A DNA stretch of 23,446 nucleotides from a virus. Lineage: Duplodnaviria > Heunggongvirae > Uroviricota > Caudoviricetes. The notes under the pieces are model-generated. The model was not told the DNA's origin. It searched no databases and saw nothing but the letters and a program-made list of their open reading frames with translations. Shown piece after piece: positions 1-18,396 of the stretch (positions are counted from its first letter, which is position 1; the number at the start of each line of letters is the position of its first letter). Position numbers and translations under genes: made by a program. The stretch lies in IMG/VR virus record IMGVR_UViG_2698536392_000022, positions 1 to 23,446 of that record; one strand, written 5' to 3'.

Positions 1-942
1 TTAAGTTAATTTTAATGAATGGTACTCTATCGAGCTGATTGTAGATGCGATATATTTACGATCATTTACAGAGAGTATTGCCGCTAGTAGACGACATACC
101 AGAGCCTGCATTTGTAGCAATATATCGCTACCATATTGACAATCATTGATACTAGAGAAACCAAGCGGTTGCCCATTAAAAATGGCTTCATGAAAATTAT
201 CATTGCGTATAACTGAAACATTACATTCATCTGTTGCCCATGACGGGATTTTTACACCGTAATTTTCGCACATCCAATATACTCTATTTTGATGAGATGG
301 TTTTTTCTCTTTAATGACTTTATCCCTTTCATCCCATGCTATAGCAAAACAGCAATCAAGAGCCATATAAAGATACTGGAATTTCTCAAAGGAAAGGTAT
401 AGTGGGTTATGTGATAGGAATAGGGAGTGTATCACCGCAGCTATTCTTTTAATGGAGCGATCATCTTTTTGTTTGTCTTTTATATAGTTAAGTGCTAGCT
501 CTATTACTTCTTTTTCAGAGCATCCAACGAGAATAAAGTCAGTTAACTTAGTGGGCTTGATAGTGGTTGCATCAAGAAAACCAGCGTCAGTGGTTGTCAA
601 TCTTATACCCTTGAAAAAAGAGAGGCACCACACAACAAAGTTGAGAGTTTCTAACGAGGATGTGTTTTTTAATTTTAGTGTGTGCGTTTTGGGCATGCCG
701 AATACTCGGTAACTATAAGGCATTGTGCATGTGTCACCATTAAGGTTATATACCTTTCGATTCCCAGGGTATATCCAACCATTAACAACGTTTTTATCAT
801 TGTTAATACGTTCCACTTTCTCAATAAGACCGGGTAAAGTACGCAAAGAAAATTGTTCAGTCTCAATGTTAACTTCTACTGGATAGTATCCAAACTCCGA
901 AATAATCTCATTTGGTTGCTGTTCATCAACTTCACCTTGCAT
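1..942 (-). CDS. Hypothetical protein, 313 aa, AT-rich cargo gene at the cos-proximal (old/tin-equivalent) position
   Basis: Complete ORF with ATG at 942..940 and stop at 3..1. GGAG Shine-Dalgarno 6 nt upstream on the minus strand. About 30% GC against about 52% in neighbouring phage genes. No family recognised by eye. Confidence 0.7.
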   Translation of the reverse strand: MQGEVDEQQPNEIISEFGYYPVEVNIETEQFSLRTLPGLIEKVERINNDKNVVNGWIYPGNRKVYNLNGDTCTMPYSYRVFGMPKTHTLKLKNTSSLETLNFVVWCLSFFKGIRLTTTDAGFLDATTIKPTKLTDFILVGCSEKEVIELALNYIKDKQKDDRSIKRIAAVIHSLFLSHNPLYLSFEKFQYLYMALDCCFAIAWDERDKVIKEKKPSHQNRVYWMCENYGVKIPSWATDECNVSVIRNDNFHEAIFNGQPLGFSSINDCQYGSDILLQMQALVCRLLAAILSVNDRKYIASTISSIEYHSLKLT

Positions 943-2403: not shown

Positions 2404-4175
2404 CAGTAAAACTCCAGAATGGTGGATGTCAGCGGGGTGCTGATACCGGCGGTGAGTGGCTCATTTAACAGGGCGTGCATGGTCGCCCAGGCGAGGTCGG
2501 CGTGGCTGGCTTCCTCGCTGCGGCTGGCCTCATAGGTGGCGCTGCGTCCGCTGCTGGTCATGGTCTTGCGGATAGCCATAAACGAGCTGGTGATGTCGGT
2601 GGCGCTGACGTCATATTCCAGACAGCCACGGCGGATGACGTCTTTTGCCTTGAGCACCATTGCGGTTTTCATTTCCGGCGTGTAGCGGATGTCGCGCGCG
2701 GCGGGATAGAACGAGCGCACGAGCTGGAACACGCCGACACCGAGGCCGGTGGCATCAATACCGATGTATTCGACGTTGTATTTTTCGGTGAGTTTGCGGA
2801 TGGATTCCGCCTGAGTGGCAAAGTCCATGCCTTTCCACTGGTGACGCTCAAGTATTCTGAATTTGCCACCGGCCACCACCGGCGGTGCCAGTACCACGCA
2901 TCCGGCGCTGTCTCCACGGTGTGACGGGTCGTAACCAATCCATACCGGACGTGAGCCGAACGGATTGGCGGCAAACGGCGCATAGTCTTCCCATTCTTCC
3001 AGCGTGTCGACCATGCAGCGTTGCAGTTCCTCGAACGGGAACACCGACGCCTTGTCGTCAACAAATTTACACATGAACAGGTTTTTAAAATCGTCGGCGC
3101 TGTTTTCACGTTTGAGCTGCTCAATGTCGAACAGCGTGCAGCCGCCTTTCAGGGCGTCCTCAATGGTGACAATCTGCCGCCACTGGCCGTCCGCACAGAG
3201 AAGCCCACCGGCAAGGGCGTTATGACTGACGTCGATTTCCACGCGTTCGGCGGCGCTGGCGCGTCCCCGGTTGAACAGTTCACCTGACCAGAACGGGTAG
3301 GCGTCGTGCGCCAGCGTGGACGGGGTGGAGAAATAGGTCGAACGCAGGTGACTCTGTGAGGCCATACCTGATGCCACCTTACGCAGTACCTGAAAATTCG
3401 GGATCCAGAAAATCTCGTCGACGTACAGGTCGCCGTTATGGCTCTGTGCGGTGTTGGAGTTGGTGCCGAGAAAAATCAGTTTTGCGCCGTTATTGCCCAG
3501 GACAATCGGGTCACCGGTCAGGTCAACGTCAACCAGACGGGCAAAGGCGATGATGTATTCGCGGAACACATACGCCTGCGTTTTACTGGCCGACAGAAAA
3601 ATCTGGTTATGGCCGGTTTTCAGGGCGCGCAGCAGCGCCTCGCGGGAAAAATAAAACGTTGCGCCAATCTGGCGGGATTTCAGGATATCGCGGATGCGGT
3701 GCTCAAGCCCGGCACGATACCAGTGCAACTGATAGTCGAAAGACTGCTCAAAGAAAATCTGCTCCAGCTTTTCGATGGCCTCGTCACTGAAAAAATTCTT
3801 TTTCGGTTTGCGACGCCCGCCTTTGTTGCGGTTAGCGACGTTCGGATTAAGGTCTGCCTCGTTGCCGGTCTGGCTGTAGCGGTTTACCCGTGCCAGTCGT
3901 TCAATCTGGCGTCCCAGCAGGTCAATTTCCTTGAAATCACCGCCGGTTTTCTGCGGTTTGATGATGATCTGGGTCAGCCGCGCTTCCAGACTCATTTCGA
4001 CACGGCTGATGGGGGCAACGCTGTCCCAGCCGTCGCGCTGTTTCCAGTTCTGCACCGTCGGGCGTTTCATCTGCAACATGGCGGCAATCTGCGGCACGGA
4101 AAACCCCTGCCAGTACAGCAGCGCCGCCTGACGAGGCGGGTCGTGTAAAAGAGTGGTGTCTGTGGTGATGGTCAT
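2403..4175 (-). CDS. P: Terminase large (ATPase) subunit (P2 gpP-like), 590 aa
   Basis: Start set at the ATG at 4175..4173 (MTITTDTTLLHD...), which matches my recollection of the P2 gpP N-terminus. The ORF-track start 30 nt upstream is a TTG. Confidence 0.92.
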   Translation of the reverse strand: MTITTDTTLLHDPPRQAALLYWQGFSVPQIAAMLQMKRPTVQNWKQRDGWDSVAPISRVEMSLEARLTQIIIKPQKTGGDFKEIDLLGRQIERLARVNRYSQTGNEADLNPNVANRNKGGRRKPKKNFFSDEAIEKLEQIFFEQSFDYQLHWYRAGLEHRIRDILKSRQIGATFYFSREALLRALKTGHNQIFLSASKTQAYVFREYIIAFARLVDVDLTGDPIVLGNNGAKLIFLGTNSNTAQSHNGDLYVDEIFWIPNFQVLRKVASGMASQSHLRSTYFSTPSTLAHDAYPFWSGELFNRGRASAAERVEIDVSHNALAGGLLCADGQWRQIVTIEDALKGGCTLFDIEQLKRENSADDFKNLFMCKFVDDKASVFPFEELQRCMVDTLEEWEDYAPFAANPFGSRPVWIGYDPSHRGDSAGCVVLAPPVVAGGKFRILERHQWKGMDFATQAESIRKLTEKYNVEYIGIDATGLGVGVFQLVRSFYPAARDIRYTPEMKTAMVLKAKDVIRRGCLEYDVSATDITSSFMAIRKTMTSSGRSATYEASRSEEASHADLAWATMHALLNEPLTAGISTPLTSTILEFY

Positions 4176-4205
4176 GAATACCTCGCCGTGATGAATACAC
4201 GGCAA

Positions 4206-4348
4206 GGCTACTGAGTCGCGCCCCGCGATTCGCTAAGGTGCTGTTGTGTCAGTGATAAGCCATCCGGGACTGATGGCGGAGGATGCGCATCGTCGGGAAA
4301 CTGATGCCGACATGTGACTCCTCTAATCACTATTCAGGACTCCTGACA
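4206..4348. promoter_or_regulatory. Divergent P/O intergenic region, expected site of the two Ogr-dependent late promoters
   Basis: Inference from P2 organisation (divergent late operons PQ and ONMLXYK). I could not find a clean TGT-N12-ACA activator site by eye. Confidence 0.35.
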
Positions 4349-5203
4349 ATGGCAAAAAAAGTCTCAAAATTCTTTCGTATCGGCGTTGAGGGTGACACCT
4401 GTGACGGGCGTGTCATCAGTGCGCAGGATATTCAGGAAATGGCCGAAACCTTTGACCCGCGAGTCTACGGTTGCCGCATTAACCTGGAACATCTGCGCGG
4501 CATCCTGCCTGACGGTATTTTTAAACGTTATGGCGATGTGGTCGAACTGAAGGCCGAAAAGATTGACGATGATTCGGCGCTGAAAGGCAAATGGGCGCTG
4601 TTTGCGAAAATCACCCCGACCGATGACCTTATCGCGATGAACAAGGCCGCGCAGAAGGTCTATACCTCAATGGAAATTCAGCCGAACTTTGCCAACACCG
4701 GCAAATGTTATCTGGTGGGGCTGGCCGTCACCGATGACCCGGCAAGCCTCGGCACGGAATACCTGGAATTCTGCCGCACGGCAAAACACAACCCTCTGAA
4801 CCGCTTCAAATTAAGCCCTGAAAACCTGATTTCAGTGGCAACGCCCGTTGAGCTGGAATTTGAAGACCTGCCTGAAACCGTGTTCACCGCCCTGACTGAA
4901 AAGGTGAAATCCATTTTTGGCCGCAAACAGGCCAGCGATGACGCCCGTCTGAATGACGTGCATGAAGCGGTGAGCGCTGTTGCTGAACATGTGCAGGAAA
5001 AACTGAGCGCCACTGATCAGCGCCTCGCTGAGATGGAAACCGCCTTTTCCGCACTTAAGCAGGAGGTGACTGACCAGGTGGATGAAACCAGCCAGGCATT
5101 CACCCGCCTGAAAAACAGTCTCGACAGCACCGAAAGTCTGACCCAGCAGCGCCGCAGCAAGGCCACCGGCGGTGGCGGTGACGCCCTGATGACGAACTGC
5201 TGA
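4349..5203 (+). CDS. O: Capsid scaffolding protein (P2 gpO-like), 284 aa
   Basis: Start at the ATG at 4349 (MAKKVSKFFRIGVEGD...), which matches the P2 gpO N-terminus and length. The upstream in-frame ATG at 4283 lacks a Shine-Dalgarno. Confidence 0.9.
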   Translation: MAKKVSKFFRIGVEGDTCDGRVISAQDIQEMAETFDPRVYGCRINLEHLRGILPDGIFKRYGDVVELKAEKIDDDSALKGKWALFAKITPTDDLIAMNKAAQKVYTSMEIQPNFANTGKCYLVGLAVTDDPASLGTEYLEFCRTAKHNPLNRFKLSPENLISVATPVELEFEDLPETVFTALTEKVKSIFGRKQASDDARLNDVHEAVSAVAEHVQEKLSATDQRLAEMETAFSALKQEVTDQVDETSQAFTRLKNSLDSTESLTQQRRSKATGGGGDALMTNC

Positions 5204-5261
5204 CCGGCGTCAGCCAGTCCGGGAAAACCTTCACGATTAACCCTTAATTTCAGGAAAAACT

Positions 5262-6335
5262 ATGCGCCAGGAAACCCGATTTAAATTTAATGCCTACCTG
5301 TCCCGTGTTGCCGAACTGAACGGCATCGACGCCGGTGATGTGTCGAAAAAATTCACCGTTGAACCGTCGGTCACCCAGACCCTGATGAACACCATGCAGG
5401 AGTCCTCTGATTTCCTGACCCGCATCAACATTGTGCCGGTCAGCGAAATGAAAGGGGAAAAAATTGGCATCGGTGTCACCGGCTCCATCGCCAGCACCAC
5501 CGACACCGCCGGTGGCACCGAGCGTCAGCCGAAGGACTTCTCGAAGCTGGCGTCAAACAAGTACGAATGCGACCAGATTAACTTCGATTTTTATATCCGC
5601 TACAAAACGCTGGACCTTTGGGCGCGTTATCAGGATTTCCAGCTCCGTGTCCGTAACGCCATTATCAAACGCCAGTCCCTTGATTTAATCATGGCCGGTT
5701 TTAACGGCGTGAGGCGTGCCGAAACCTCTGACCGCAGCAGTAACCAGATGCTGCAGGATGTGGCGGTCGGCTGGCTGCAGAAATACCGCAATGAAGCCCC
5801 GGCGCGCGTGATGAGCAAGGTTACTGACGAGGAAGGTCACACGACCTCTGAGGTCATCCGCGTGGGTAAGGGCGGTGATTATGCCAGCCTCGATGCACTG
5901 GTGATGGATGCGACCAACAACCTGATTGAGCCGTGGTATCAGGAAGACCCTGACCTTGTGGTGATTGTGGGGCGTCAGCTACTGGCGGACAAGTATTTCC
6001 CCATCGTCAACAAGGAGCAGGACAACAGCGAGATGCTGGCCGCTGACGTCATCATCAGCCAGAAACGCATCGGTAACCTGCCGGTGGTACGCGTCCCGTA
6101 CTTCCCGGCGGATGCGATGCTCATCACAAAGCTGGAAAACCTGTCCATCTACTACATGGATGACAGCCATCGCCGCGTGATTGAGGAAAACCCGAAACTC
6201 GACCGCGTGGAGAACTACGAGTCAATGAACATTGATTACGTGGTGGAAGACTACGCCGCCGGTTGTCTGGTGGAAAAAATTAAGGTCGGTGATTTCTCCA
6301 CACTGGCTAAAGCGACCGCAGAGCCGGGAGCGTAA
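5262..6335 (+). CDS. N: Major capsid protein (P2 gpN-like), 357 aa
   Basis: 357 aa as in P2 gpN. AGGA Shine-Dalgarno upstream of ATG. Position between O and M. Confidence 0.93.
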   Translation: MRQETRFKFNAYLSRVAELNGIDAGDVSKKFTVEPSVTQTLMNTMQESSDFLTRINIVPVSEMKGEKIGIGVTGSIASTTDTAGGTERQPKDFSKLASNKYECDQINFDFYIRYKTLDLWARYQDFQLRVRNAIIKRQSLDLIMAGFNGVRRAETSDRSSNQMLQDVAVGWLQKYRNEAPARVMSKVTDEEGHTTSEVIRVGKGGDYASLDALVMDATNNLIEPWYQEDPDLVVIVGRQLLADKYFPIVNKEQDNSEMLAADVIISQKRIGNLPVVRVPYFPADAMLITKLENLSIYYMDDSHRRVIEENPKLDRVENYESMNIDYVVEDYAAGCLVEKIKVGDFSTLAKATAEPGA

Positions 6336-6338
6336 CCG

Positions 6339-7082
6339 ATGACGAGTCCCGCACAGCGCCACATGATGCGGGTCTCGGCAGCGATGACCGCGCAGCGGGA
6401 AGCCGCCCCGCTGCGACATGCAACTGTCTATGAGCAGATGCTGGTTAAGCTCGCCGCAGACCAGCGCACACTGAACGCGATTTATTCAAAAGAGCTGAAG
6501 GCCGCGAAAAAACGCGAACTGCTGCCGTTCTGGTTGCCGTGGGTGAACGGCGTGCTGGAGCAGGGCAAAGGTGCACAGGATGACATTCTGATGACGGTCA
6601 TGCTGTGGCGTCTGGATACCGGCGATATTGCCGGTGCGCTGGAGATTGCCCGTTATGCTCTGAAGTACGGTCTGACCATGCCGGGTAAACACCGCCGTAC
6701 CCCGCCGTACATGTTCACCGAGGAGGTAGCGCTTGCGGCCATGCGCGCTCACGCTGCCGGTGAGTCTGTGGATACCCGCCTGCTGACGGAGACCCTTGAA
6801 CTGACCGCCACGGCTGACATGCCTGATGAAGTGCGCGCAAAGCTGCACAAAATTACCGGTCTGTTTCTGCGTGACGGTGGTGATGCCGCCGGTGCGCTGG
6901 CTCACCTGCAACGTGCGACACAGCTCGACTGTCAGGCAGGCGTCAAAAAAGAGATTGAACGACTGGAGCGGGAGCTGAAACCGAAGCCGGAGCCGCAGCC
7001 CAAAGCGTCCCCCCGCGCCCCGCGTAAGACCCGGAGCGTGACACCGGCAAAACGTGGACGCCCGAAAAAGAAAGCCAGTTAA
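6339..7082 (+). CDS. M: Terminase small subunit (P2 gpM-like), 247 aa
   Basis: 247 aa as in P2 gpM. Lys/Arg/Pro-rich basic C-terminal tail. GGGAG Shine-Dalgarno. Confidence 0.9.
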   Translation: MTSPAQRHMMRVSAAMTAQREAAPLRHATVYEQMLVKLAADQRTLNAIYSKELKAAKKRELLPFWLPWVNGVLEQGKGAQDDILMTVMLWRLDTGDIAGALEIARYALKYGLTMPGKHRRTPPYMFTEEVALAAMRAHAAGESVDTRLLTETLELTATADMPDEVRAKLHKITGLFLRDGGDAAGALAHLQRATQLDCQAGVKKEIERLERELKPKPEPQPKASPRAPRKTRSVTPAKRGRPKKKAS

Positions 7083-7181
7083 CAACCGAATGCGCCCCGC
7101 GCCAGGGCGGCACGCCGGTCAGTGATGGTGAATCACCTGACGCTGTACCGGCGTCCACCGCCCGACTTTTCAGAGGTAGTC

Positions 7182-7688
7182 ATGATGACGCTGATTATTC
7201 CGCGAAAGGAGGCTCCCGTGTCCGGTGAGGGTACGGTGGTCATCCCGCAACCGGCAGGCGACGAGCCGGTGATTAAAAACACGTTCTTTTTTCCCGATAT
7301 CGACCCGAAGCGCGTCCGGGAACGTATGCGCCTTGAGCAGACCGTCGCCCCCGCCCGTCTGCGTGAGGCCATCAAGTCAGGCATGGCGGAGACGAATGCG
7401 GAGTTGTACGAGTACCGCGAACAGAAAATTGCCGCCGGTTTTACGCGTCTGGCGGACGTTCCGGCGGACGACATCGACGGTGAAAGTATCAAATTTTACT
7501 ACGAGCGCGCCGTGTGTGCGATGGCGACCGCGTCGCTTTATGAGCGTTACCGCGGCGTGGATGCCAGTGCGAAAGGAGACAAGAAGGCCGACAGCATTGA
7601 CAGCACCATAGATGAGCTGTGGCGGGATATGCGCTGGGCAGTGGCGCGCATCCAGGACAAGCCGCGCTGCATCGTGAGTCAAATCTGA
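7182..7688 (+). CDS. L: Head completion/stabilisation protein (P2 gpL-like), 168 aa
   Basis: Start at ATGATG 7182 (MMTLIIPRKE...) with GAGG Shine-Dalgarno. The ORF-track start at 7122 is a GTG. Stop overlaps the X start (TGATG). Confidence 0.88.
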   Translation: MMTLIIPRKEAPVSGEGTVVIPQPAGDEPVIKNTFFFPDIDPKRVRERMRLEQTVAPARLREAIKSGMAETNAELYEYREQKIAAGFTRLADVPADDIDGESIKFYYERAVCAMATASLYERYRGVDASAKGDKKADSIDSTIDELWRDMRWAVARIQDKPRCIVSQI

Positions 7689-10626: not shown

Positions 10627-11412
10627 TTATGAGTGGTTTTTATTTGATGATTTGTATTCTACAACTTTTTTATTGGCGTAAAGGAATTTTGTATATGACA
10701 GAAGTATAACCAGACCTGAAGTGAAATAGACGAGGGATATTATTAATAATGTTTTTCTGTGGCTGTTATTATCTTTAATCTCCTGACTTAACCATTCGGA
10801 GTCCTCCTCGTTTAGCTGTAAGAGCTTATTGCAGGCGATTGCAGGAAGTGTGTCTGTTACAAAAGTGTTCTGCAGTCTCTTGCAATCGGCAATGCTAAAA
10901 GCTTTATAGAACTTATCTGTTTTATTGTCGGAGAACAAAAGAACCTTGTCATTATAAACATGGTACATCATATTTTTATATGGTATGGCTATGGCATCCT
11001 CTACTATGGCAGATTGCTCGTTGTGTATGCAACATGCGAAGGTAATATAAAGAATTCCGGCCAGGACTGCACTCATTGTTTTTGTGATGCATGGCGGTTC
11101 TGTTATGTCTCCCCAGAAGCGAGTAAGGAAAAAATCCGATGTTTTTAGTTTTCCATCAATCAACCCCTGCTGTATCATTTTCACATCTTTGATGCCTGAT
11201 ACATTGATTCCGTTAATTATTTTAAATAGTTGAATGTCGCGCCACTCGCGGTCCAGTCTTTTTAATTTTTTATCTGAATATCCAAATTTGAAATAATGTG
11301 CAATAAGCCTCATAAGGTTACTTTTACCAAAGCTAAAAAATGCTAATACTACAAAGACCAAAAGATACAAGACGATTAGCTCCCACACATTAGTCACATT
11401 ATAGCTGACCAT
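10627..11412 (-). CDS. Hypothetical membrane protein at the P2 orf30 position, 261 aa from the ATG start, antisense to the late operons
   Basis: ATG at 11412..11410 with a strong AAGGAG Shine-Dalgarno 6 nt upstream on the minus strand. The longer ORF-track form starts at a TTG. AT-rich. Hydrophobic segments near both termini. Confidence 0.7.
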   Translation of the reverse strand: MVSYNVTNVWELIVLYLLVFVVLAFFSFGKSNLMRLIAHYFKFGYSDKKLKRLDREWRDIQLFKIINGINVSGIKDVKMIQQGLIDGKLKTSDFFLTRFWGDITEPPCITKTMSAVLAGILYITFACCIHNEQSAIVEDAIAIPYKNMMYHVYNDKVLLFSDNKTDKFYKAFSIADCKRLQNTFVTDTLPAIACNKLLQLNEEDSEWLSQEIKDNNSHRKTLLIISLVYFTSGLVILLSYTKFLYANKKVVEYKSSNKNHS

Positions 11413-11495
11413 TACGCTCTCCTTGAATGTTGTCTGGTGGTTCTGCAAATGAATCCAGATAGCATAACTTTTATATATTGTGCAATCTCACATGC

Positions 11496-12479: not shown

Positions 12480-13388
12480 ATGCCGATTATCGACCTGAAC
12501 CAGCTACCCGCACCGGATGTGGTCGAGGAGCTGGACTTTGAAACCATTCTTGCCGAACGCAAGGCGACACGGATTTCCCTTTACCCGGAAGACCAGCAGG
12601 AGGCGGTCGCCCGTACCCTGACACTGGAATCTGAGCCTCTCGTCAAACTGCTGGAGGAAAATGCTTATCGTGAGCTTATCTGGCGTCAGCGTGTGAATGA
12701 GGCTGCGCGGGCGGTGATGCTGGCCTGTGCCGCCGGTAATGACCTTGATGTGATTGGTGCCAATTACAACACCACGCGCCTGACTATCACCCCGGCAGAT
12801 GATTCGACCATTCCGCCGACACCGGCAGTGATGGAATCTGACACCGATTATCGTCTGCGTATTCAGCAGGCTTTTGAGGGCTTAAGCGTCGCCGGGTCAG
12901 TGGGAGCCTATCAGTATCATGGTCGCAGTGCTGACGGGCGTGTCGCGGATATTTCTGTCACCAGTCCGTCTCCTGCCTGTGTCACCATCTCTGTGCTGTC
13001 ACGTGAAAATAACGGCGTCGCATCCGAAGACCTGCTGGCTGTGGTGCGTAACGCCCTTAATGGCGAGGACGTCAGGCCGGTGGCCGACCGCGTGACCGTG
13101 CAGTCTGCCGCCATCGTTGAATACCAGATAAACGCCACGCTTTACCTTTACCCTGGTCCCGAAAGCGAACCCATCCGCGCTGCCGCTGTGAAAAAGCTGG
13201 AAGCGTATATCACGGCACAGCACCGGCTGGGGCGCGACATCCGTCTGTCTGCCATTTATGCCGCTTTGCATGTGGAAGGTGTGCAGCGTGTCGAACTGGC
13301 TGCACCACTGGCCGACATCGTGCTCAACAGTACGCAGGCGTCTTTCTGTACCGAATACCGCGTCGTGACCGGAGGCTCGGATGAGTGA
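12480..13388 (+). CDS. J: Baseplate wedge protein (P2 gpJ-like), 302 aa
   Basis: 302 aa as in P2 gpJ. Gene order. Confidence 0.92.
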   Translation: MPIIDLNQLPAPDVVEELDFETILAERKATRISLYPEDQQEAVARTLTLESEPLVKLLEENAYRELIWRQRVNEAARAVMLACAAGNDLDVIGANYNTTRLTITPADDSTIPPTPAVMESDTDYRLRIQQAFEGLSVAGSVGAYQYHGRSADGRVADISVTSPSPACVTISVLSRENNGVASEDLLAVVRNALNGEDVRPVADRVTVQSAAIVEYQINATLYLYPGPESEPIRAAAVKKLEAYITAQHRLGRDIRLSAIYAALHVEGVQRVELAAPLADIVLNSTQASFCTEYRVVTGGSDE

Positions 13389-13911
13389 TTCGCGACTGCT
13401 GCCGACCGGCTCATCACCGCTTGAAGTTGCTGCCGCAAAAGCCTGTGCGGAAATTGAAAAAACGCCGGTCAGGATTCGTGAACTGTGGAACCCGAATACC
13501 TGTCCGGCAAATCTGCTGCCGTGGCTGGCGTGGGCGTTTTCGGTCGACAGGTGGGATGAAAAGTGGCCGGAAGCGACAAAACGCGCCGTTATCCGCGATG
13601 CCTATTTCATCCACTGTCATAAGGGCACTATAGGTGCAATCCGGCGTGTGGTGGAGCCGCTCGGCTATCTCATCAACGTGACGGAGTGGTGGGAAAACAG
13701 TGACCCGCCCGGCACCTTCCGGCTTGATATTGGTGTACTGGAAAGCGGTATCACAGAGGCAATGTATCAGGAAATGGAACGGCAGATTGCTGATGCCAAA
13801 CCTGCAAGCCGCCACCTTATTGGCCTGAACATTACCCGGGACATTCCCGGCTACCTGTTCGCCGGTGGTGTGGCTTATGACGGCGATGTAATTACGGTTT
13901 ACCCCGGATAA
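13381..13911 (+). CDS. I: Baseplate protein (P2 gpI-like), 176 aa
   Basis: 176 aa as in P2 gpI. Overlaps the J stop. Confidence 0.9.
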   Translation: MSDSRLLPTGSSPLEVAAAKACAEIEKTPVRIRELWNPNTCPANLLPWLAWAFSVDRWDEKWPEATKRAVIRDAYFIHCHKGTIGAIRRVVEPLGYLINVTEWWENSDPPGTFRLDIGVLESGITEAMYQEMERQIADAKPASRHLIGLNITRDIPGYLFAGGVAYDGDVITVYPG

Positions 13912-13921
13912 GTGAGGAATA

Positions 13922-16240
13922 ATGAGCACAAAATTCAGAACCGTTATCACCACTGCCGGTGCAGCAAAGCTGGCAGCGGCAACCGCACCGGGAGGGCGGA
14001 AGGTCAACATTACCACGATGGCCGTCGGGGATGGCGGTGGTAAATTGCCTGTCCCGGATGCCGGACAGACCGGGCTTATCCACGAAGTCTGGCGACATGC
14101 GCTGAACAAAATCAGTCAGGACAAACGAAACAGTAATTATATTATCGCAGAGCTGGTTATTCCGCCGGAGGTGGGCGGTTTCTGGATGCGTGAGCTTGGC
14201 CTGTACGATGATGCGGGAACGTTAATTGCCGTGGCGAACATGGCCGAAAGTTATAAGCCAGCTCTTGCCGAAGGCTCAGGGCGTTCGCAGACCTGCCGCA
14301 TGGTCATCATCGTCAGCAGTGTGGCCTCAGTGGATCTGACCATTGACACTACAACGGTGATGGCAACGCAGGATTACGTTGATGACAAAATTGCAGAGCA
14401 CGAACAGTCACGACGTCACCCGGACGCCTCGCTGACCGCAAAAGGTTTTACTCAGTTAAGCAGTGCGACCAACAGCACGTCTGAAACACTGGCCGCAACG
14501 CCGAAAGCGGTAAAGGCCGCCTATGACCTTGCTAACGGGAAATATACTGCGCAGGATGCCACCACGGCGCGAAAAGGCCTTGTTCAGCTCAGTAGTGTGA
14601 CCAACAGCACGTCTGAAACGCTCGCCGCAACGCCGAAAGCGGTAAAGGCAGCATATGACCTTGCTAACGGGAAATACACTGCACAGGACGCCACCACCGC
14701 GCGAAAAGGCCTTGTTCAGCTCAGTAGCGCCACCAACAGCGATTCTGAAACGCTTGCGGCAACACCAAAGGCGGTTAAGACAGCGTATGACCTTGCTAAC
14801 GGGAAATACACTGCACAGGATGCCACCACTGCGCGAAAAGGTCTTGTCCAGCTCAGTAGCGCCACCAACAGTGATTCTGAAACCCTCGCGGCAACGCCAA
14901 AAGCAGTGAAGTCTGCCTATGACAATGCTGAAAAACGTCTTCAGAAAGATCAGAACGGTGCGGATATTCCGGGAAAGGATACCTTTACGAAAAATATCGG
15001 TGCCTGTCGTGCTTATAGCGGCGCTTTGAGCACTGAAGCCGGAAACTGGACAACCGCTCAGTTTATTGAATGGCTGGATTCCCGTGGTGCATTTAATCAT
15101 CCGTACTGGATGTGCAAAGGCTCCTGGTCATATGCAAATAACAAAATCATTACGGATACCGGATGTGGTGATATCCACCTGGCTGGTTGTGTAGTCGAGG
15201 TCATGGGAACTAAATCTGCAATCACTATCCGAGTGACCACGCCGACAACATCAAGCGGTGGCGGTACAACCAGCGCACAATTCACTTACATTAATCATGG
15301 GGACGGCTACTCCCCCGGCTGGCGTCGTGACTGGAATCGTCAGGGCGACTCAATGACCGGAACGATTAATCAGGATGGCGGAAGCCAGAATGCCTATATG
15401 TCTACGGCCTTATGTTCAGGCACCAGAGGCGGCAAAAAATATCTCAGAAAGTTTCGTGGTGGAGAAGGAGATACTATCTGGCATGAAACAGTTCAGGGCG
15501 GGGTAGTTCGCTGGGCGACTGGTAATACTGATACTCAGGAAGAATTATCACTCAGCTCCGCTTATGGTCTCCGTTCAAGAGGTGAGATTACATCACTCAG
15601 TGCTAATGGTCTGCGCATCGCTTATGGCAATTATGGATTCTTTATCAGGAATGATGGCGGCAGCACATATTTAATGCTGACGGCCTCTGGCGATAAATTT
15701 GGGACATGGAACGGCTTAAGACCGCTGACTATCAATAACGCCAATGGCGGAGTGTCAATGGGGCATGGCCTGAGTGTTACAGGTGATATTGTCTCAAGTA
15801 CCAAAGTACGTGCCGGTAGCGGGAAAAAGTTCACGGTCAGCAGCAGCAATACATCCACGAAGGAAGCCGCATTCAATTTGTGGGGAAACTCAAGTCGTCC
15901 TGTGGTGGCTGAATTAGGTGATGATGCAGGCTGGCATTTTTACAGTCAGAGAAATACAGATAACAGCATCACTTTTGCTGTTAACGGGCAGGTATCACCA
16001 TCTAATTATAGTAATTTTGATTCACGCTATGTCCGGGATATCCGGCTTGGTGGTGCTGCCACATACAAACCTGCGAACAATGGCATGACATGGACACATC
16101 AGGCACCGTCCGGGTGTGTATATTCCGGCATTATTGTTCAGGATACCGGCTCAAACTCTGCCGATAACATTGGTGGCGTATATTACAGACCGGTTCAGAA
16201 ATACATTAACGGGACATGGTACAACGTGGCGCAGGTATAA
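13922..16240 (+). CDS. H: Tail fibre protein (P2 gpH-like), 772 aa, with internal tandem repeats
   Basis: N-terminus MSTKFRTVITTAGAAKLAAATAPG... is gpH-like and the C-terminal end ...YINGTWYNVAQV is fibre-like. Longer than P2 gpH (669 aa as I recall) because of extra 44-aa repeats. Confidence 0.92.
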   Translation: MSTKFRTVITTAGAAKLAAATAPGGRKVNITTMAVGDGGGKLPVPDAGQTGLIHEVWRHALNKISQDKRNSNYIIAELVIPPEVGGFWMRELGLYDDAGTLIAVANMAESYKPALAEGSGRSQTCRMVIIVSSVASVDLTIDTTTVMATQDYVDDKIAEHEQSRRHPDASLTAKGFTQLSSATNSTSETLAATPKAVKAAYDLANGKYTAQDATTARKGLVQLSSVTNSTSETLAATPKAVKAAYDLANGKYTAQDATTARKGLVQLSSATNSDSETLAATPKAVKTAYDLANGKYTAQDATTARKGLVQLSSATNSDSETLAATPKAVKSAYDNAEKRLQKDQNGADIPGKDTFTKNIGACRAYSGALSTEAGNWTTAQFIEWLDSRGAFNHPYWMCKGSWSYANNKIITDTGCGDIHLAGCVVEVMGTKSAITIRVTTPTTSSGGGTTSAQFTYINHGDGYSPGWRRDWNRQGDSMTGTINQDGGSQNAYMSTALCSGTRGGKKYLRKFRGGEGDTIWHETVQGGVVRWATGNTDTQEELSLSSAYGLRSRGEITSLSANGLRIAYGNYGFFIRNDGGSTYLMLTASGDKFGTWNGLRPLTINNANGGVSMGHGLSVTGDIVSSTKVRAGSGKKFTVSSSNTSTKEAAFNLWGNSSRPVVAELGDDAGWHFYSQRNTDNSITFAVNGQVSPSNYSNFDSRYVRDIRLGGAATYKPANNGMTWTHQAPSGCVYSGIIVQDTGSNSADNIGGVYYRPVQKYINGTWYNVAQV
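14441..14925 (+). repeat. In-frame tandem repeat in H, period 132 bp (44 aa), about 3.7 copies
   Basis: Units start at 14441, 14573, 14705 and 14837 and encode KG(F/L)(T/V)QLSS(A/V)TNS(T/D)SETLAATPKAVKxAYDLANGKYTAQDATTAR. Copies differ at a few mostly synonymous or conservative positions. Confidence 0.88.
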
Positions 16241-16243
16241 TTT

Positions 16244-16771
16244 ATGCAGCATTTGATAAATATAACGGTGGGTAATCCAAAAACAGTTGAACAATATCAA
16301 TTGACAAAGGACTTTGATGTCGTCTGGTTTTTTACAGAAGATGGTAAGAACTGGTACGAAGAACAAAAGTATTTTGCTGATGACACGATAAAAATAGCGT
16401 ACGACAAAGATAATATCATCCGCTATGTGGAAAAGGATGTGACAGCTATCAGACCGGATGGATTAAGTGTTGTTGAAGTGGCGGATATTACTGCTAACCG
16501 ACGGGCGGACATTTCAGGGAACTGGATGTTTAAGGACGGCAAAGTGATTAAACGCATTTATACGGCAGAGGAATTACAGCAGCAGGCAGAAATTCGGAAA
16601 GCCAGACTTCTTGCAGATGCTGAATCCGTGATTTTGCCGCTGGAGCGCGCTGTCAGGTTGAACATGGCAACAGAGGAGGAGCGCACACGGCTGGAGGCTT
16701 GGGAACGCTACAGCGTTGTGGTCAGTCGTGTGGATCCTGCAAATCCTGAATGGCCGGAAATGCCGCAATAA
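16244..16771 (+). CDS. G: Tail fibre assembly chaperone (P2 gpG-like), 175 aa
   Basis: 175 aa immediately downstream of H. Length and position as P2 gpG. Confidence 0.88.
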
Positions 16772-17052: not shown

Positions 17053-18396
17053 ATGGCTACTTATGCTTCTTATTTACCAGAATCACAAATTATCACTTTG
17101 TGCAAGGATTTCCCAGCGTTTACTGATCCTGAAAAATTAGATGGATTCATTAATCCAGAACAGTTTGGCGTGTTTTTTCATGAGTGGATTCATTTTCTTC
17201 ACAATATTTCCACAATTAATGGGTTTTCTATTTTTTGCACGCAAAACATCCTGTGGTCTAATTTTCGCTGGGCAATGGACAATCAGGATGTATGTCTTGG
17301 TTCAAATGACATGGATCCAGCACATATCGAATCAAACAAAAATTTTCTCAGTTACATTCGTTCCAATAGGAGTCTGCATAAATGTAACTTACCTTATTAT
17401 GTAAAAGTAAACGACTTGTATTTTGAGGATGCAATAATCCATGACATGGAGGTTGCTGACGGTAGTGTTATATGTACATCATTAATAAAGTGTAGAATTT
17501 CTCATTCTGAAAACAAATACGATCTAGATTTAGGCGTGCTTGAAATACTTGAATCCGCAGCTTTTATGCTTGAATGTAAGTGTATTAATGCGATGAATGG
17601 CTTCCCTCAAGAGGCACCCTTTTATCCGTATCATACTATCAAAGGCTTAGCAGCGAAAATTGCTCCGTCATTAAATGATGAAGATATTATTTGTTGTATG
17701 TTAGCTTCTTTGCAATCTAATAACCCTCCCCAAGTATTATTCAATCTACTACATAAATGTGAATTATTACATTCTGATTGTAGGTATGAACATCTAGTGG
17801 CGGAGGTGAAAAAACAATTAAGCGAACAAGATCAAATAATAAGCGAGTCACTTAATCAAATAATTCAAATGATTCCTGTTGATGAACCGATGGGAAACTT
17901 TATCAAGCTTACTCTTAACAGAATAAGTAACAATTTGAACTATAGAAAGCAAAAACCGTTTTTTGAGTTAGATATAATAAAAAAAATAGCAGAAAAAACT
18001 GAGTTTATGAATGAAGTAATACAGAAATTCGGTGGTTGCACTATCATCCAGGTAAGACATGGAGATGATAATGAACCACAGCGTGATATTATGTATGACT
18101 TTTGCTTACCTGAAAATAATGATTCAATTTTATTTGGTTCGAAAATGCTACGCGCTTGTTTTCACTTTATATTTATTCACTTTAAACTTTCTGGTGAAAT
18201 CATGAAGACAGAAGAATTAAATATTTCGCCGCGTAATAAATGCCCATTTTATACTGTTTGCTGTGCATCAATTCGAGCTAATAATAGTAATATCTGCGCT
18301 GAATCCCCTTGGAAATCAATGTCTATTGATGACAACAAAGGTTGTTATTATGCAGCAGCGATTAAAGCTACTAACCCACCAGTTTTGCCGGATTAA
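17053..18396 (+). CDS. Hypothetical protein, 447 aa, cysteine-rich with HExxH motif, cargo gene at the Z/fun-equivalent position
   Basis: ATG at 17053 preceded by AGAGGA Shine-Dalgarno with a 6-nt spacer. About 33% GC. 20 Cys residues. HEWIH at residues 43..47 (nt 17179..17193) with a further His at residue 50. No signal peptide. Followed by an intrinsic terminator. Confidence 0.8.
   Translation: MATYASYLPESQIITLCKDFPAFTDPEKLDGFINPEQFGVFFHEWIHFLHNISTINGFSIFCTQNILWSNFRWAMDNQDVCLGSNDMDPAHIESNKNFLSYIRSNRSLHKCNLPYYVKVNDLYFEDAIIHDMEVADGSVICTSLIKCRISHSENKYDLDLGVLEILESAAFMLECKCINAMNGFPQEAPFYPYHTIKGLAAKIAPSLNDEDIICCMLASLQSNNPPQVLFNLLHKCELLHSDCRYEHLVAEVKKQLSEQDQIISESLNQIIQMIPVDEPMGNFIKLTLNRISNNLNYRKQKPFFELDIIKKIAEKTEFMNEVIQKFGGCTIIQVRHGDDNEPQRDIMYDFCLPENNDSILFGSKMLRACFHFIFIHFKLSGEIMKTEELNISPRNKCPFYTVCCASIRANNSNICAESPWKSMSIDDNKGCYYAAAIKATNPPVLPD

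What the first reader, a model, noticed from the sequence alone, without database searches (positions are those of the whole stretch)
14441..14925. Tandem 44-aa repeat array in the tail fibre shaft
Three full copies and one partial copy of a 132-bp in-frame unit sit in H. The copies are nearly identical, which suggests recent expansion by slipped or unequal recombination. The minus-strand 214-aa ORF at 14456..15100 is a shadow of this repeat.
Basis: seen in the sequence. Interest (0 to 1): 0.4.

Follow-up and report, generated by a model that had tools for sequence, protein, structure and literature searches.

The report
Old four-unit tail-fibre repeat array
The tail-fibre gene of this P2-like E. 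coli prophage really does carry four tandem 44-residue units, but they belong to a known phage tail-fibre repeat family and form an old array with a fixed unit order, so the finding is ordinary.

Summary
The repeat is real. Gene H (13922-16240, +) carries a 132-bp, in-frame tandem array: three full units and a fourth that leaves the repeat after 33 codons (14429-14944). All four match Pfam PF03406, the "phage tail fibre repeat". The window is a P2-like prophage of E. coli. The array lies between the conserved N-terminal domain of gpH, taken by analogy to be the baseplate anchor, and the exchangeable distal part.

"Nearly identical, hence recent expansion" fails. The units are 91-93% identical as protein but only 74-87% as DNA. 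Between units dS is 0.46-1.3 and dN/dS about 0.05-0.12, whereas the flanking N-terminal domain shows dS of about 0.08 against P2-type relatives. Each unit matches the unit at the same position in 47 other four-unit arrays (92-97%) better than its own neighbours.

Relatives carry 1-6 units. Four is the commonest number in a sample biased towards close relatives. A few relatives do hold 100% identical neighbouring units, so unit gain happens in the family but not here.

The same unit occurs singly in lambda Stf, P1 S (annotated as a 132-bp repeated element) and Mu S.

The minus-strand 214-aa ORF is an in-register antisense shadow.

Verdict: already known, low interest.

The parts
13922..16240 (+). 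Gene H, the P2-type tail-fibre protein (772 aa)
   Evidence: ORF list and translation. Pfam PF12571 + 4x PF03406 + PF21446. 100% identical to the RefSeq 'tail fiber protein' WP_032206236.1.
13922..14374 (+). N-terminal tail-collar fibre domain (aa 1-151), the conserved proximal part of H; its role as baseplate anchor is inferred, not tested
   Evidence: PF12571, E = 3e-58, residues 1-151. 97-98% nt identity to P2, Wphi, fiAA91-ss and others.
14429..14560 (+). Repeat unit 1 (aa 170-213), unit type A, found only at the first position
   Evidence: HMM stretch 170-213. Mean 96.7% nt identity to unit 1 of 47 four-unit relatives and 74-87% to the other units in this gene. Type A appears only at position 1.
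14561..14692 (+). Repeat unit 2 (aa 214-257), unit type D, found almost only at the second position
   Evidence: Mean 92.3% identity to unit 2 of relatives; the same position is the best match in 87% of loci. Type positions.
14693..14824 (+). Repeat unit 3 (aa 258-301), unit type B; this is the type present twice in most five-unit relatives
   Evidence: Mean 95.0% identity to unit 3 of relatives. Five-unit arrays are mostly A-D-B-B-C.
14825..14944 (+). Repeat unit 4 (aa 302-341), the terminal unit, type C. It follows the repeat for 33 codons (to nt 14923) and then runs into the distal module (...AVKSAYDNAEKRLQKDQNGADIP).
   Evidence: HMM stretch 302-341, profile positions 1-40. This unit and its continuation align with Mu tail fibre S residues 113-180. 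Mean 93.6% identity to unit 4 of relatives.
14456..15100 (-). 214-aa antisense shadow ORF, judged not to be a gene
   Evidence: In exact codon register with H. It stays open because H codons 180-402 hold no TTA, CTA or TCA. Its stop is the TTA Leu codon of unit 1. Only one sub-threshold Pfam hit (E 0.22, 12 bits vs cut-off 25.4). Not annotated in RefSeq. Interrupted in 18/46 four-unit relatives.
14655..14909 (+). 84-aa off-frame ORF inside the array, also a by-product of the repeat
   Evidence: ORF list. No Pfam match.
16244..16771 (+). Gene G, the tail-fibre assembly chaperone, directly downstream of H
   Evidence: PF02413 Caudo_TAP, E = 2.5e-33. RefSeq 'tail fiber assembly protein'.
12480..13911 (+). 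Baseplate genes J (12480-13388) and I (13381-13911), upstream of H
   Evidence: PF04865 Baseplate_J and PF09684 Tail_P2_I. Same order as P2 V-W-J-I-H-G.

Best explanation
The feature is an old array, with a fixed unit order, of four units of the known 44-residue "phage tail fibre repeat" (Pfam PF03406). It lies in the proximal part of the P2-type tail-fibre protein gpH, between the conserved N-terminal domain and the exchangeable distal part that is taken to bind the receptor.

Shown:
- The four units are four distinct unit types in a fixed order.
- Their protein sequence is under purifying selection.
- The same order recurs in many E. coli prophages and in phages isolated in culture.

Inferred:
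- In the trimeric fibre each unit contributes one structural module, so the number of units sets the length or reach of the proximal shaft.
- Because the same conserved unit ends the constant part of many unrelated fibre genes (lambda Stf, P1 S, Mu S), it also serves as the shared sequence at which distal modules are swapped.
- Units are occasionally gained or lost by unequal crossing-over. This window shows no sign of a recent event of that kind.

The minus-strand ORF is a by-product of the array's codon content repeated over four units.
For: - Repeat and family: (PF03406, four stretches, 255 bits against a cut-off of 22).
- Gene identity and neighbours.
- Age and selection: between units dS is 0.46-1.33 and dN is 0.045-0.154. 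The N-terminal domain shows dS 0.07-0.09 against six P2-type relatives.
- Units match by position: each window unit averages 92-97% identity to the same position in 47 four-unit arrays (37 distinct sequences) and 73-87% to other positions. The best match is the same position in 87-100% of loci (single cases).
- Unit types are tied to position. The window's order A-D-B-C is shared by 42 arrays. Five-unit arrays are mostly A-D-B-B-C, and three-unit arrays are A-D-C or A-B-C.
- Unit number in relatives runs from 1 to 6. It tracks the distal module: 1-2 units before ...VMDETNKK (17 loci) and 3-5 before ...DNAEKRLQKDQNGADIP (60 loci).
- The array is stable. The 40 best complete E. coli genomes listed nearly all span exactly 2319 nt, at 97-100% identity. 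The exceptions are a 2318-nt and two 2309-nt matches, none differing by a whole unit.
- Position at a junction in unrelated fibres: single units occur in lambda Stf, P1 S, Mu S, Stx-phage fibres, HP2 and Gifsy-2. In Mu the boundary of the invertible G segment lies 59 bp after the unit. P1 annotates it as the 132-bp "repeated element a1".
- Recent unit gain does occur in relatives: 100% identical neighbouring units in L008, L020, L023 and L069.
Against: - No three-dimensional evidence for the unit was obtained. The AlphaFold2 monomer model of aa 151-364 had a mean pLDDT of 50 and pTM of 0.30.
- PDB entries for Mu S contain the unit in their sequence. I could not check whether it is resolved, and the in situ Mu study modelled only the N-terminus of the fibre (PMC11915804). 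The module and length idea is therefore inference.
- The link between unit number and distal module could reflect shared ancestry rather than function.
- High dS between units could partly come from units imported from diverged phages by recombination, rather than from age in one lineage.
- The samples of relatives are biased. The 80 viral loci are those most similar to the window's N-terminal domain. The 120 proteins are ranked by score, which favours more units.
- This prophage copy looks defective, so its H gene may no longer be in use in this host.
Confidence: 0.78

Rival explanations
1. One reading: the array expanded recently in this lineage by replication slippage or unequal recombination between nearly identical units.
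For: Unit number does vary among relatives, from 1 to 6. Some relatives have 100% identical neighbouring units (L008 units 2-4; L020, L023, L069). Units 1-3 here are 91-93% identical as protein.
Against: The DNA of the units is only 74-87% identical. Between units dS is 0.46-1.33, against about 0.08 for the flanking domain versus P2-type relatives. Every unit has a closer counterpart at the same position in other phages. The A-D-B-C order is shared by 42 arrays. The same 2319-nt gene length appears in nearly all of the 40 best complete E. coli genomes.
Confidence: 0.04
2. The array is a fast-switching contingency locus: unit number changes at high frequency within a phage population to vary fibre length or host range.
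For: Unit number is polymorphic across the family. In-register exact matches of 21-35 nt exist between units. That is near the minimal length for RecA-dependent recombination, which is general knowledge and was not tested here.
Against: Units are diverged and tied to position. Nearly all of the 40 best complete genomes at 97-100% identity keep the 2319-nt length, and none differs by a whole unit. Within each distal-module class the unit number is narrow, with four strongly commonest.
Confidence: 0.05
3. The unit number is an assembly artefact, from collapse or expansion of a repeat.
For: Many database homologues are "partial" proteins that end at contig edges, so short-read assemblies do break in or near tail-fibre genes.
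Against: The units differ at 13-26% of positions, so reads place them unambiguously. The identical 2319-nt gene is present in the complete genome of E. coli 2012C-4227, and a 2318-nt, 100% identical match is present in 2013C-4830. Near-identical copies of the same length occur in dozens more complete genomes.
Confidence: 0.01
4. The minus-strand 214-aa ORF (14456..15100) is a real overlapping gene.
For: H codons 180-402 contain no TTA, CTA or TCA codon. That gives an open antisense run of 223 codons. It is longer than in synonymous-codon shuffles (mean 114, sd 29; 0.4% reach it). It remains unlikely (P about 0.004) if the repeat is counted once. An ATG start is present.
Against: This is the antisense frame that is in codon register, the frame most prone to shadow ORFs. 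The product is itself a 44-residue repeat rich in Arg, Cys and Phe, with only one sub-threshold Pfam hit (E 0.22, 12 bits vs cut-off 25.4). In 18 of 46 four-unit relatives the frame is broken by codons that make antisense stops. RefSeq annotates nothing there. Other unannotated antisense ORFs of 199-236 aa occur elsewhere in the window.
Confidence: 0.02

Closest known systems
Pfam PF03406 (Phage_fiber_2, 'phage tail fibre repeat'; InterPro IPR005068)
   Same: All four units match the 42-position profile end to end (best stretch positions 1-41; whole protein 255 bits against a cut-off of 22). Same unit length and same core, KG-x-x-QLS-x-AT-x-S-x-SETLAATPKAVK.
   Different: Nothing essential. 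The family is defined by sequence only. [quoted passage not shown]
Bacteriophage P2 gpH (NC_001895, 669 aa)
   Same: Same gene position (V-W-J-I-H-G). The N-terminal domain is 96.8% identical in DNA. Unit 1 is 98% identical.
   Different: P2 has two units (types A-E), and the second leads into ...VMDETNKKAPLNSP. The window has four units (A-D-B-C) leading into a distal module like that of Mu S/S'.
Phages with the same four-unit array: Yersinia phage vB_YpM_46 and Escherichia phage vB_EcoM-12474III
   Same: Four units at the same residues (170-341). vB_YpM_46 is 96.6% identical over 92% of H. 12474III has four units. Both were isolated as phages in culture, so the four-unit design works in viable phages.
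   Different: The distal ends differ: 12474III H is 642 aa, the window's is 772 aa.
Phage P1 tail-fibre gene S, 'repeated element a0/a1' (GenBank AF234172)
   Same: The annotated element a1 is exactly 132 bp and encodes YTAQDASTTQKGLVQLSSATNSDSETMAATPKAVKSIKDLADTK. That is the same unit in a shifted register, preceded by a 36-bp partial copy, a0. It is 76% identical in protein to a window unit.
   Different: P1 has one full and one partial unit. DNA identity to the window's units is only 57-66%. The phage is unrelated (Punavirus) and has an invertible C segment.
Phage Mu tail fibre S/gp49 (PDB 5YVQ, 8JU3, 9KI1) and lambda side tail fibre Stf
   Same: Each has a single unit at the end of the constant part. 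In Mu, residues 113-156 match the unit profile (E = 8e-24), and the G-segment boundary lies 59 bp downstream. Lambda has TTRKGIVQLSSATNSTSETLAATPKAVKVVMDETNRK. The window's sequence after unit 4 continues to align with Mu S' and then Mu S.
   Different: One unit rather than an array. Different N-terminal anchors and different virion types.

Membership tests
Pfam PF03406 Phage_fiber_2 repeat | A match to the family HMM above the curated gathering score | tested here: met
   255.4 bits against a cut-off of 22, E = 1.5e-77, four stretches. A profile built from the window's own units finds four stretches at aa 170-341.
Pfam PF03406 Phage_fiber_2 repeat | Found in phage tail-fibre proteins | tested here: met
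   The host protein has the PF12571 N-terminal domain and is followed by a PF02413 chaperone gene. RefSeq names it a tail fiber protein.
P2-type tail fibre gpH (Peduovirus) | N-terminal tail-collar fibre domain homologous to that of P2 gpH | tested here: met
   PF12571, E = 3e-58. 96.8% nt identity to P2 H codons 1-165.
P2-type tail fibre gpH (Peduovirus) | Gene order J-I-H-G within a P2-like late operon | tested here: met
   Pfam hits for J, I, H and G. P2 annotation. The window is 95-96% identical to P2-like phages over 81-85% of its length.
P2-type tail fibre gpH (Peduovirus) | Forms the trimeric tail fibre on the virion and binds the host receptor | not testable with these tools
   Needs virions. 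This prophage copy also appears defective: the tape-measure gene is a pseudogene and only a fragment of gpD remains.
Recently expanded tandem repeat (VNTR-like or slippage product) | Units nearly identical at DNA level, closer to one another than to units elsewhere | tested here: not met
   74-87% identity between units, against 92-97% to the same position in other arrays. Between units dS is 0.46-1.33.
Recently expanded tandem repeat (VNTR-like or slippage product) | Unit number differs among otherwise near-identical genomes | tested here: inconclusive
   Unit number is 1-5 among loci whose N-terminal domain is at least 98% identical. But it tracks the distal module, and nearly all of the 40 closest full-length matches keep 2319 nt, none differing by a whole unit.
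Antisense shadow ORF | Lies in codon register on the opposite strand of a well-supported gene, has no homologue family, and is not conserved as an open frame | tested here: met
   Register offset 0. Interrupted in 18/46 relatives. Only one sub-threshold Pfam hit (E 0.22, 12 bits vs cut-off 25.4). Not annotated. Caveat: the open run is longer than the codon-shuffle expectation.
T4 gp12 short-tail-fibre N-terminal repeats (considered from memory as a structural analogue) | Detectable sequence or profile similarity between the unit and the gp12 N-terminal repeats | tested here: not met
   T4 gp12 gives no PF03406 hit at E <= 0.1. hhalign of a 22-unit profile against gp12 residues 1-250 gives probability 0.5%, with seven columns aligned.

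The most novel reading that the evidence does not exclude
The fixed order of four diverged unit types, and the strict pairing of unit number with distal module (1-2 units before the P2-type module, 3-5 before the Mu-S'-type module), might reflect selection on fibre geometry, with unit number tuning proximal shaft length to the distal module or to the depth of the host surface layer. The strong synonymous divergence between units might itself be favoured because it protects the array from recombinational collapse. Under that reading the array would be a natural, modular length ruler that could be used to engineer P2-type fibres and tailocins.
Probability: 0.2. Interest if true: 0.35.

Novelty: already known. 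Interest (0 to 1): 0.12.

Why it matters
It matters little for discovery. The unit is a curated Pfam family. The 132-bp element is already annotated in P1. The same four-unit array sits in many sequenced E. coli prophages and in cultured P2-like phages.

Three practical points follow:
- The minus-strand 214-aa ORF should not be annotated as a gene.
- Protein-level near-identity of repeat units should not be read as recent expansion without looking at synonymous sites.
- The array marks the natural joint between the constant and the exchangeable parts of P2-type fibres, which is where chimeric fibres for host-range engineering are most plausibly joined.

Tried and rejected
- Structure prediction. 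An AlphaFold2 monomer of aa 151-364, with a 39-sequence alignment, gave mean pLDDT 50 and pTM 0.30, with all-helical low-confidence segments. I judged it unusable and ran no fold search.
- T4 gp12 as a structural analogue. I recalled a similar K-G-x-x-x-L motif in the N-terminal repeats of T4 gp12. Pfam finds no PF03406 in gp12 and hhalign gives 0.5% probability, so I rejected the link. One paper lists PDB 5IV5 chain A as a 22%-identical, partly disordered template for PF03406 (PMC8078820). I could not verify what that chain is.
- PDB sequence search with unit profiles. It finds only Mu S constructs. Whether the unit is ordered in those entries could not be checked.
- Literature. The 1992 P2 tail-fibre paper (PMC206541) and the P2 review (PMC4836473) are not held. 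A search for the lambda junction motif MDETNR found nothing. Three searches failed on terms shorter than three characters.
- Antisense ORF as a gene. It has only one sub-threshold Pfam hit (E 0.22, 12 bits vs cut-off 25.4) and is not conserved. The codon-avoidance statistic (P about 0.004) is noted but outweighed.
- Defence-system search. PADLOC and Pfam scans of three neighbouring cargo ORFs found nothing.
Full report
**What the window is**

The 23.4-kb window is the late-gene region of a P2-like (Peduovirus) prophage of Escherichia coli.
- It is 95-96% identical over 81-85% of its length to P2, fiAA91-ss, P2_AC1 and the vB_EcoM-12474 phages.
- The tail-fibre gene is 100% identical to a chromosomal gene of E. 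coli 2012C-4227, annotated "tail fiber protein".
- The ORF 13922-16240 (+, 772 aa) has the N-terminal tail-collar fibre domain PF12571 (aa 1-151), four stretches of PF03406 "phage tail fibre repeat", and a PF21446 trimerisation domain.
- It is flanked by J (PF04865) and I (PF09684) upstream and by the tail-fibre assembly gene G (PF02413) downstream. This is the P2 order V-W-J-I-H-G.

**Checking the observation**

- Tandem Repeats Finder reports one strong array at 14468-14923: period 132, 3.5 copies, 88% matches, no indels, score 660.
- The repeat finder shows three 226-nt copies in register, 132 nt apart.
- The period equals 44 codons in the frame of H.
- In the Pfam register the units are aa 170-213, 214-257, 258-301 and 302-341 (nt 14429-14944). 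The fourth follows the repeat for 33 codons and then continues as ...AVKSAYDNAEKRLQKDQNGADIP.

The statement that the copies are nearly identical holds only for the protein.
- Units 1-3 are 91-93% identical in amino acids.
- Most differences fall at third codon positions.
- The longest in-register exact matches between units are 21-35 nt.

**Is it a recent expansion?**

No. Four lines of evidence agree.
- Divergence. Nei-Gojobori estimates between units give dS 0.46-1.33 and dN 0.045-0.154, excluding the four junction codons. The N-terminal domain just upstream shows dS of only 0.07-0.09 against P2, Wphi, P2_AC1, fiAA91-ss, 12474III and L011. The units are thus far older than the split of these phages, or were assembled from already diverged sources, and their protein sequence is under purifying selection.
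- Match by position. Each window unit is closest to the unit at the same position in other phages. Examples are unit 1 against P2 unit 1 at 98%, unit 3 against fiAA91-ss unit 2 at 96%, and unit 4 against fiAA91-ss unit 3 at 94%. Across 47 four-unit arrays from viral contigs (37 distinct sequences), mean identity to the same position is 96.7, 92.3, 95.0 and 93.6%. Identity to other positions is 73-87%. The best match is the same position in 100, 87, 98 and 100% of loci.
- Unit types. Average-linkage clustering of all units at 10% distance gives types tied to position. The window reads A-D-B-C, an order shared by 42 arrays. Five-unit arrays are mostly A-D-B-B-C. Three-unit arrays are A-D-C or A-B-C. 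P2-type arrays are A-E. One-unit genes carry a type F.
- Stability. Of the 40 best complete E. coli genomes, at 97-100% identity, 37 span exactly 2319 nt. The other three span 2318 or 2309 nt, so none differs by a whole unit. This also rules out an assembly artefact.

| Source | Units found |
|---|---|
| Named phages P2, Wphi, P2_AC1 | 2 |
| P37, fiAA91-ss | 3 |
| Window, 12474III | 4 |
| Two E. coli contigs | 5 |
| One E. coli contig | 6 |
| 120 best-scoring database proteins | 3-6 |
| 77 usable viral contigs, N-terminal domain at least 98% identical | 1 (5 loci), 2 (12), 3 (2), 4 (46), 5 (12) |
| 22 species-representative genomes of other Enterobacterales | 1-4 |

- Both large samples are biased. 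The viral set holds the 80 loci most similar to the window's N-terminal domain. The protein list is ranked by score, which favours more units.
- Unit number tracks the distal module completely in the viral set. There are 1-2 units before ...VMDETNKKAPLNSP (17 loci) and 3-5 before ...DNAEKRLQKDQNGADIP (60 loci).
- A few relatives do carry 100% identical neighbouring units: L008 units 2-4, L020, L023 and L069. In-register gain of a unit therefore happens in the family, but the window's array shows no such event.

**Where else the unit occurs**

- A tblastn search with one unit finds it in 423 phage records. P2-like phages carry several copies. Lambda Stf (orf-401), P1 S, Mu S, many Stx-phage fibres, HP2 and Gifsy-2 carry single copies.
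- In P1 the GenBank record annotates a "repeated element a1" of exactly 132 bp, preceded by a 36-bp partial "a0". Translated, a1 is the same unit in a shifted register.
- In Mu the single unit (S residues 113-156; E = 8e-24 to the unit profile) ends 59 bp before the boundary of the invertible G segment. That is the end of the constant part of S.
- After unit 4 the window's H continues to align with Mu S' (aa 334-487) and then with the Mu S/P2 tip (aa 518-771).
- The unit therefore marks the joint between the constant and exchangeable parts in several unrelated fibres. This fits the classical picture of horizontal exchange of tail-fibre segments (Haggard-Ljungquist et al. 1992, cited from the reference list; the paper itself is not held).

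**How it most likely works**

Shown: the array is coding, under purifying selection, ordered by position and widespread, and it sits between the conserved N-terminal domain and the distal module.

Inferred:
- In the trimeric fibre each unit forms one serial module of the proximal shaft, so unit number sets length.
- The conserved core of the unit supplies the homology for swapping distal modules and, rarely, for gaining or losing a unit by unequal crossing-over.

I could not obtain structural support.
- The AlphaFold2 monomer model was unusable (pLDDT 50).
- The only PDB sequences holding the unit are Mu S constructs, whose ordered regions I could not inspect. The in situ Mu study built only the N-terminus of the fibre (PMC11915804).
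[quoted passage not shown] It tentatively assigns it a globular appearance in rotary-shadowing images (PMC3368898).
- A link I recalled to the N-terminal repeats of T4 gp12 was tested and not supported.

**The minus-strand ORF**

- ORF 14456..15100 is in exact antisense codon register with H. In that frame, stops arise only from the sense codons TTA, CTA and TCA.
- H codons 180-402 contain none of these, and the ORF's stop is the TTA Leu codon of unit 1.
- Its product is itself a 44-residue repeat and has only one sub-threshold Pfam hit (E 0.22, 12 bits vs cut-off 25.4).
- RefSeq annotates nothing there.
- In 18 of 46 four-unit relatives the frame is interrupted, often at the homologous Leu codon of units 2-4.
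- Unannotated antisense ORFs of 199-236 aa occur elsewhere in the window.
- One caveat: the open run of 223 codons is longer than in synonymous-codon shuffles (0.4% reach it). It is still unlikely (P about 0.004) if the repeat is counted once. I read this as local codon usage multiplied by the repeat, not as evidence for a gene.

**Verdict**

The feature is a member of a known repeat family in a known gene, in an arrangement already present in sequenced phages and many prophages. Interest is low.

Noticed in passing
window 17053-18396 (+), 10627-11448 (-), 1-942 (-): Three cargo ORFs of 447, 273 and 313 aa have no Pfam and no PADLOC match. They sit where P2-like phages carry variable accessory genes: between G and FI (the P2 Z/fun position), between S and V, and upstream of Q. 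RefSeq calls all three hypothetical. They could be uncharacterised lysogenic-conversion or anti-phage genes.
   Followed up: partly
window about 20853-23146 (RefSeq copy L002 26932-29225): The prophage looks defective. RefSeq marks the tape-measure gene T as a pseudogene with an internal stop and a missing C-terminus. Only a C-terminal fragment of gpD follows, and no gpU is annotated. Outside the window the replication gene A is a pseudogene next to an IS2. The H gene here may be a fossil in this host.
   Followed up: partly
window 14921-16240 (H aa 334-771): The distal part of H is a mosaic. Residues 334-487 align closely with the Mu S' part of PDB 8JU3 (239 bits). Residues 518-771 align with Mu S (PDB 5YVQ) and end in the P2-like ...KYINGTWYNVAQV. 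The fibre thus joins segments related to both orientations of the Mu G-segment fibre.
   Followed up: partly
L116 (P1, AF234172) 347-514; L117 (Mu) 401-564: P1's GenBank record already annotates a 132-bp 'repeated element a1' plus a 36-bp 'a0' that correspond to this unit. In Mu the G-segment boundary lies 59 bp after its single unit.
   Followed up: yes
L115 (lambda NC_001416) 1-447, minus strand: Lambda's annotated 'orf206b' hypothetical protein lies antisense to stf (orf-401) and overlaps the lambda copy of the unit. It is probably the same kind of antisense shadow ORF as in the window.
   Followed up: no
window 14459-15127 (H codons 180-402): The sense codons TTA, CTA and TCA are completely absent across 223 codons, although they make up 25% of Leu and 32% of Ser codons in the rest of H. 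P is about 0.004 even when the repeat is counted once. Relatives do use these codons there. The local codon-usage difference is unexplained.
   Followed up: partly
L008 (E. coli GCA_964048345.1) 3001-7617: A more distant P2-family prophage has five units, of which units 2-4 are 100% identical in DNA. Its fibre gene is followed by an invertible-looking segment with oppositely oriented Collar-domain ORFs and a resolvase/invertase gene. It is a genuine example of recent unit expansion.
   Followed up: partly
L101 (Vagococcus sp. WN89Y) and L106 (Chryseobacterium sp. 18061): Enterobacterial-type P2 H genes, 74-79% identical in the N-terminal domain, turn up in assemblies labelled Vagococcus and Chryseobacterium. 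This most likely reflects contaminated or mislabelled assemblies.
   Followed up: no
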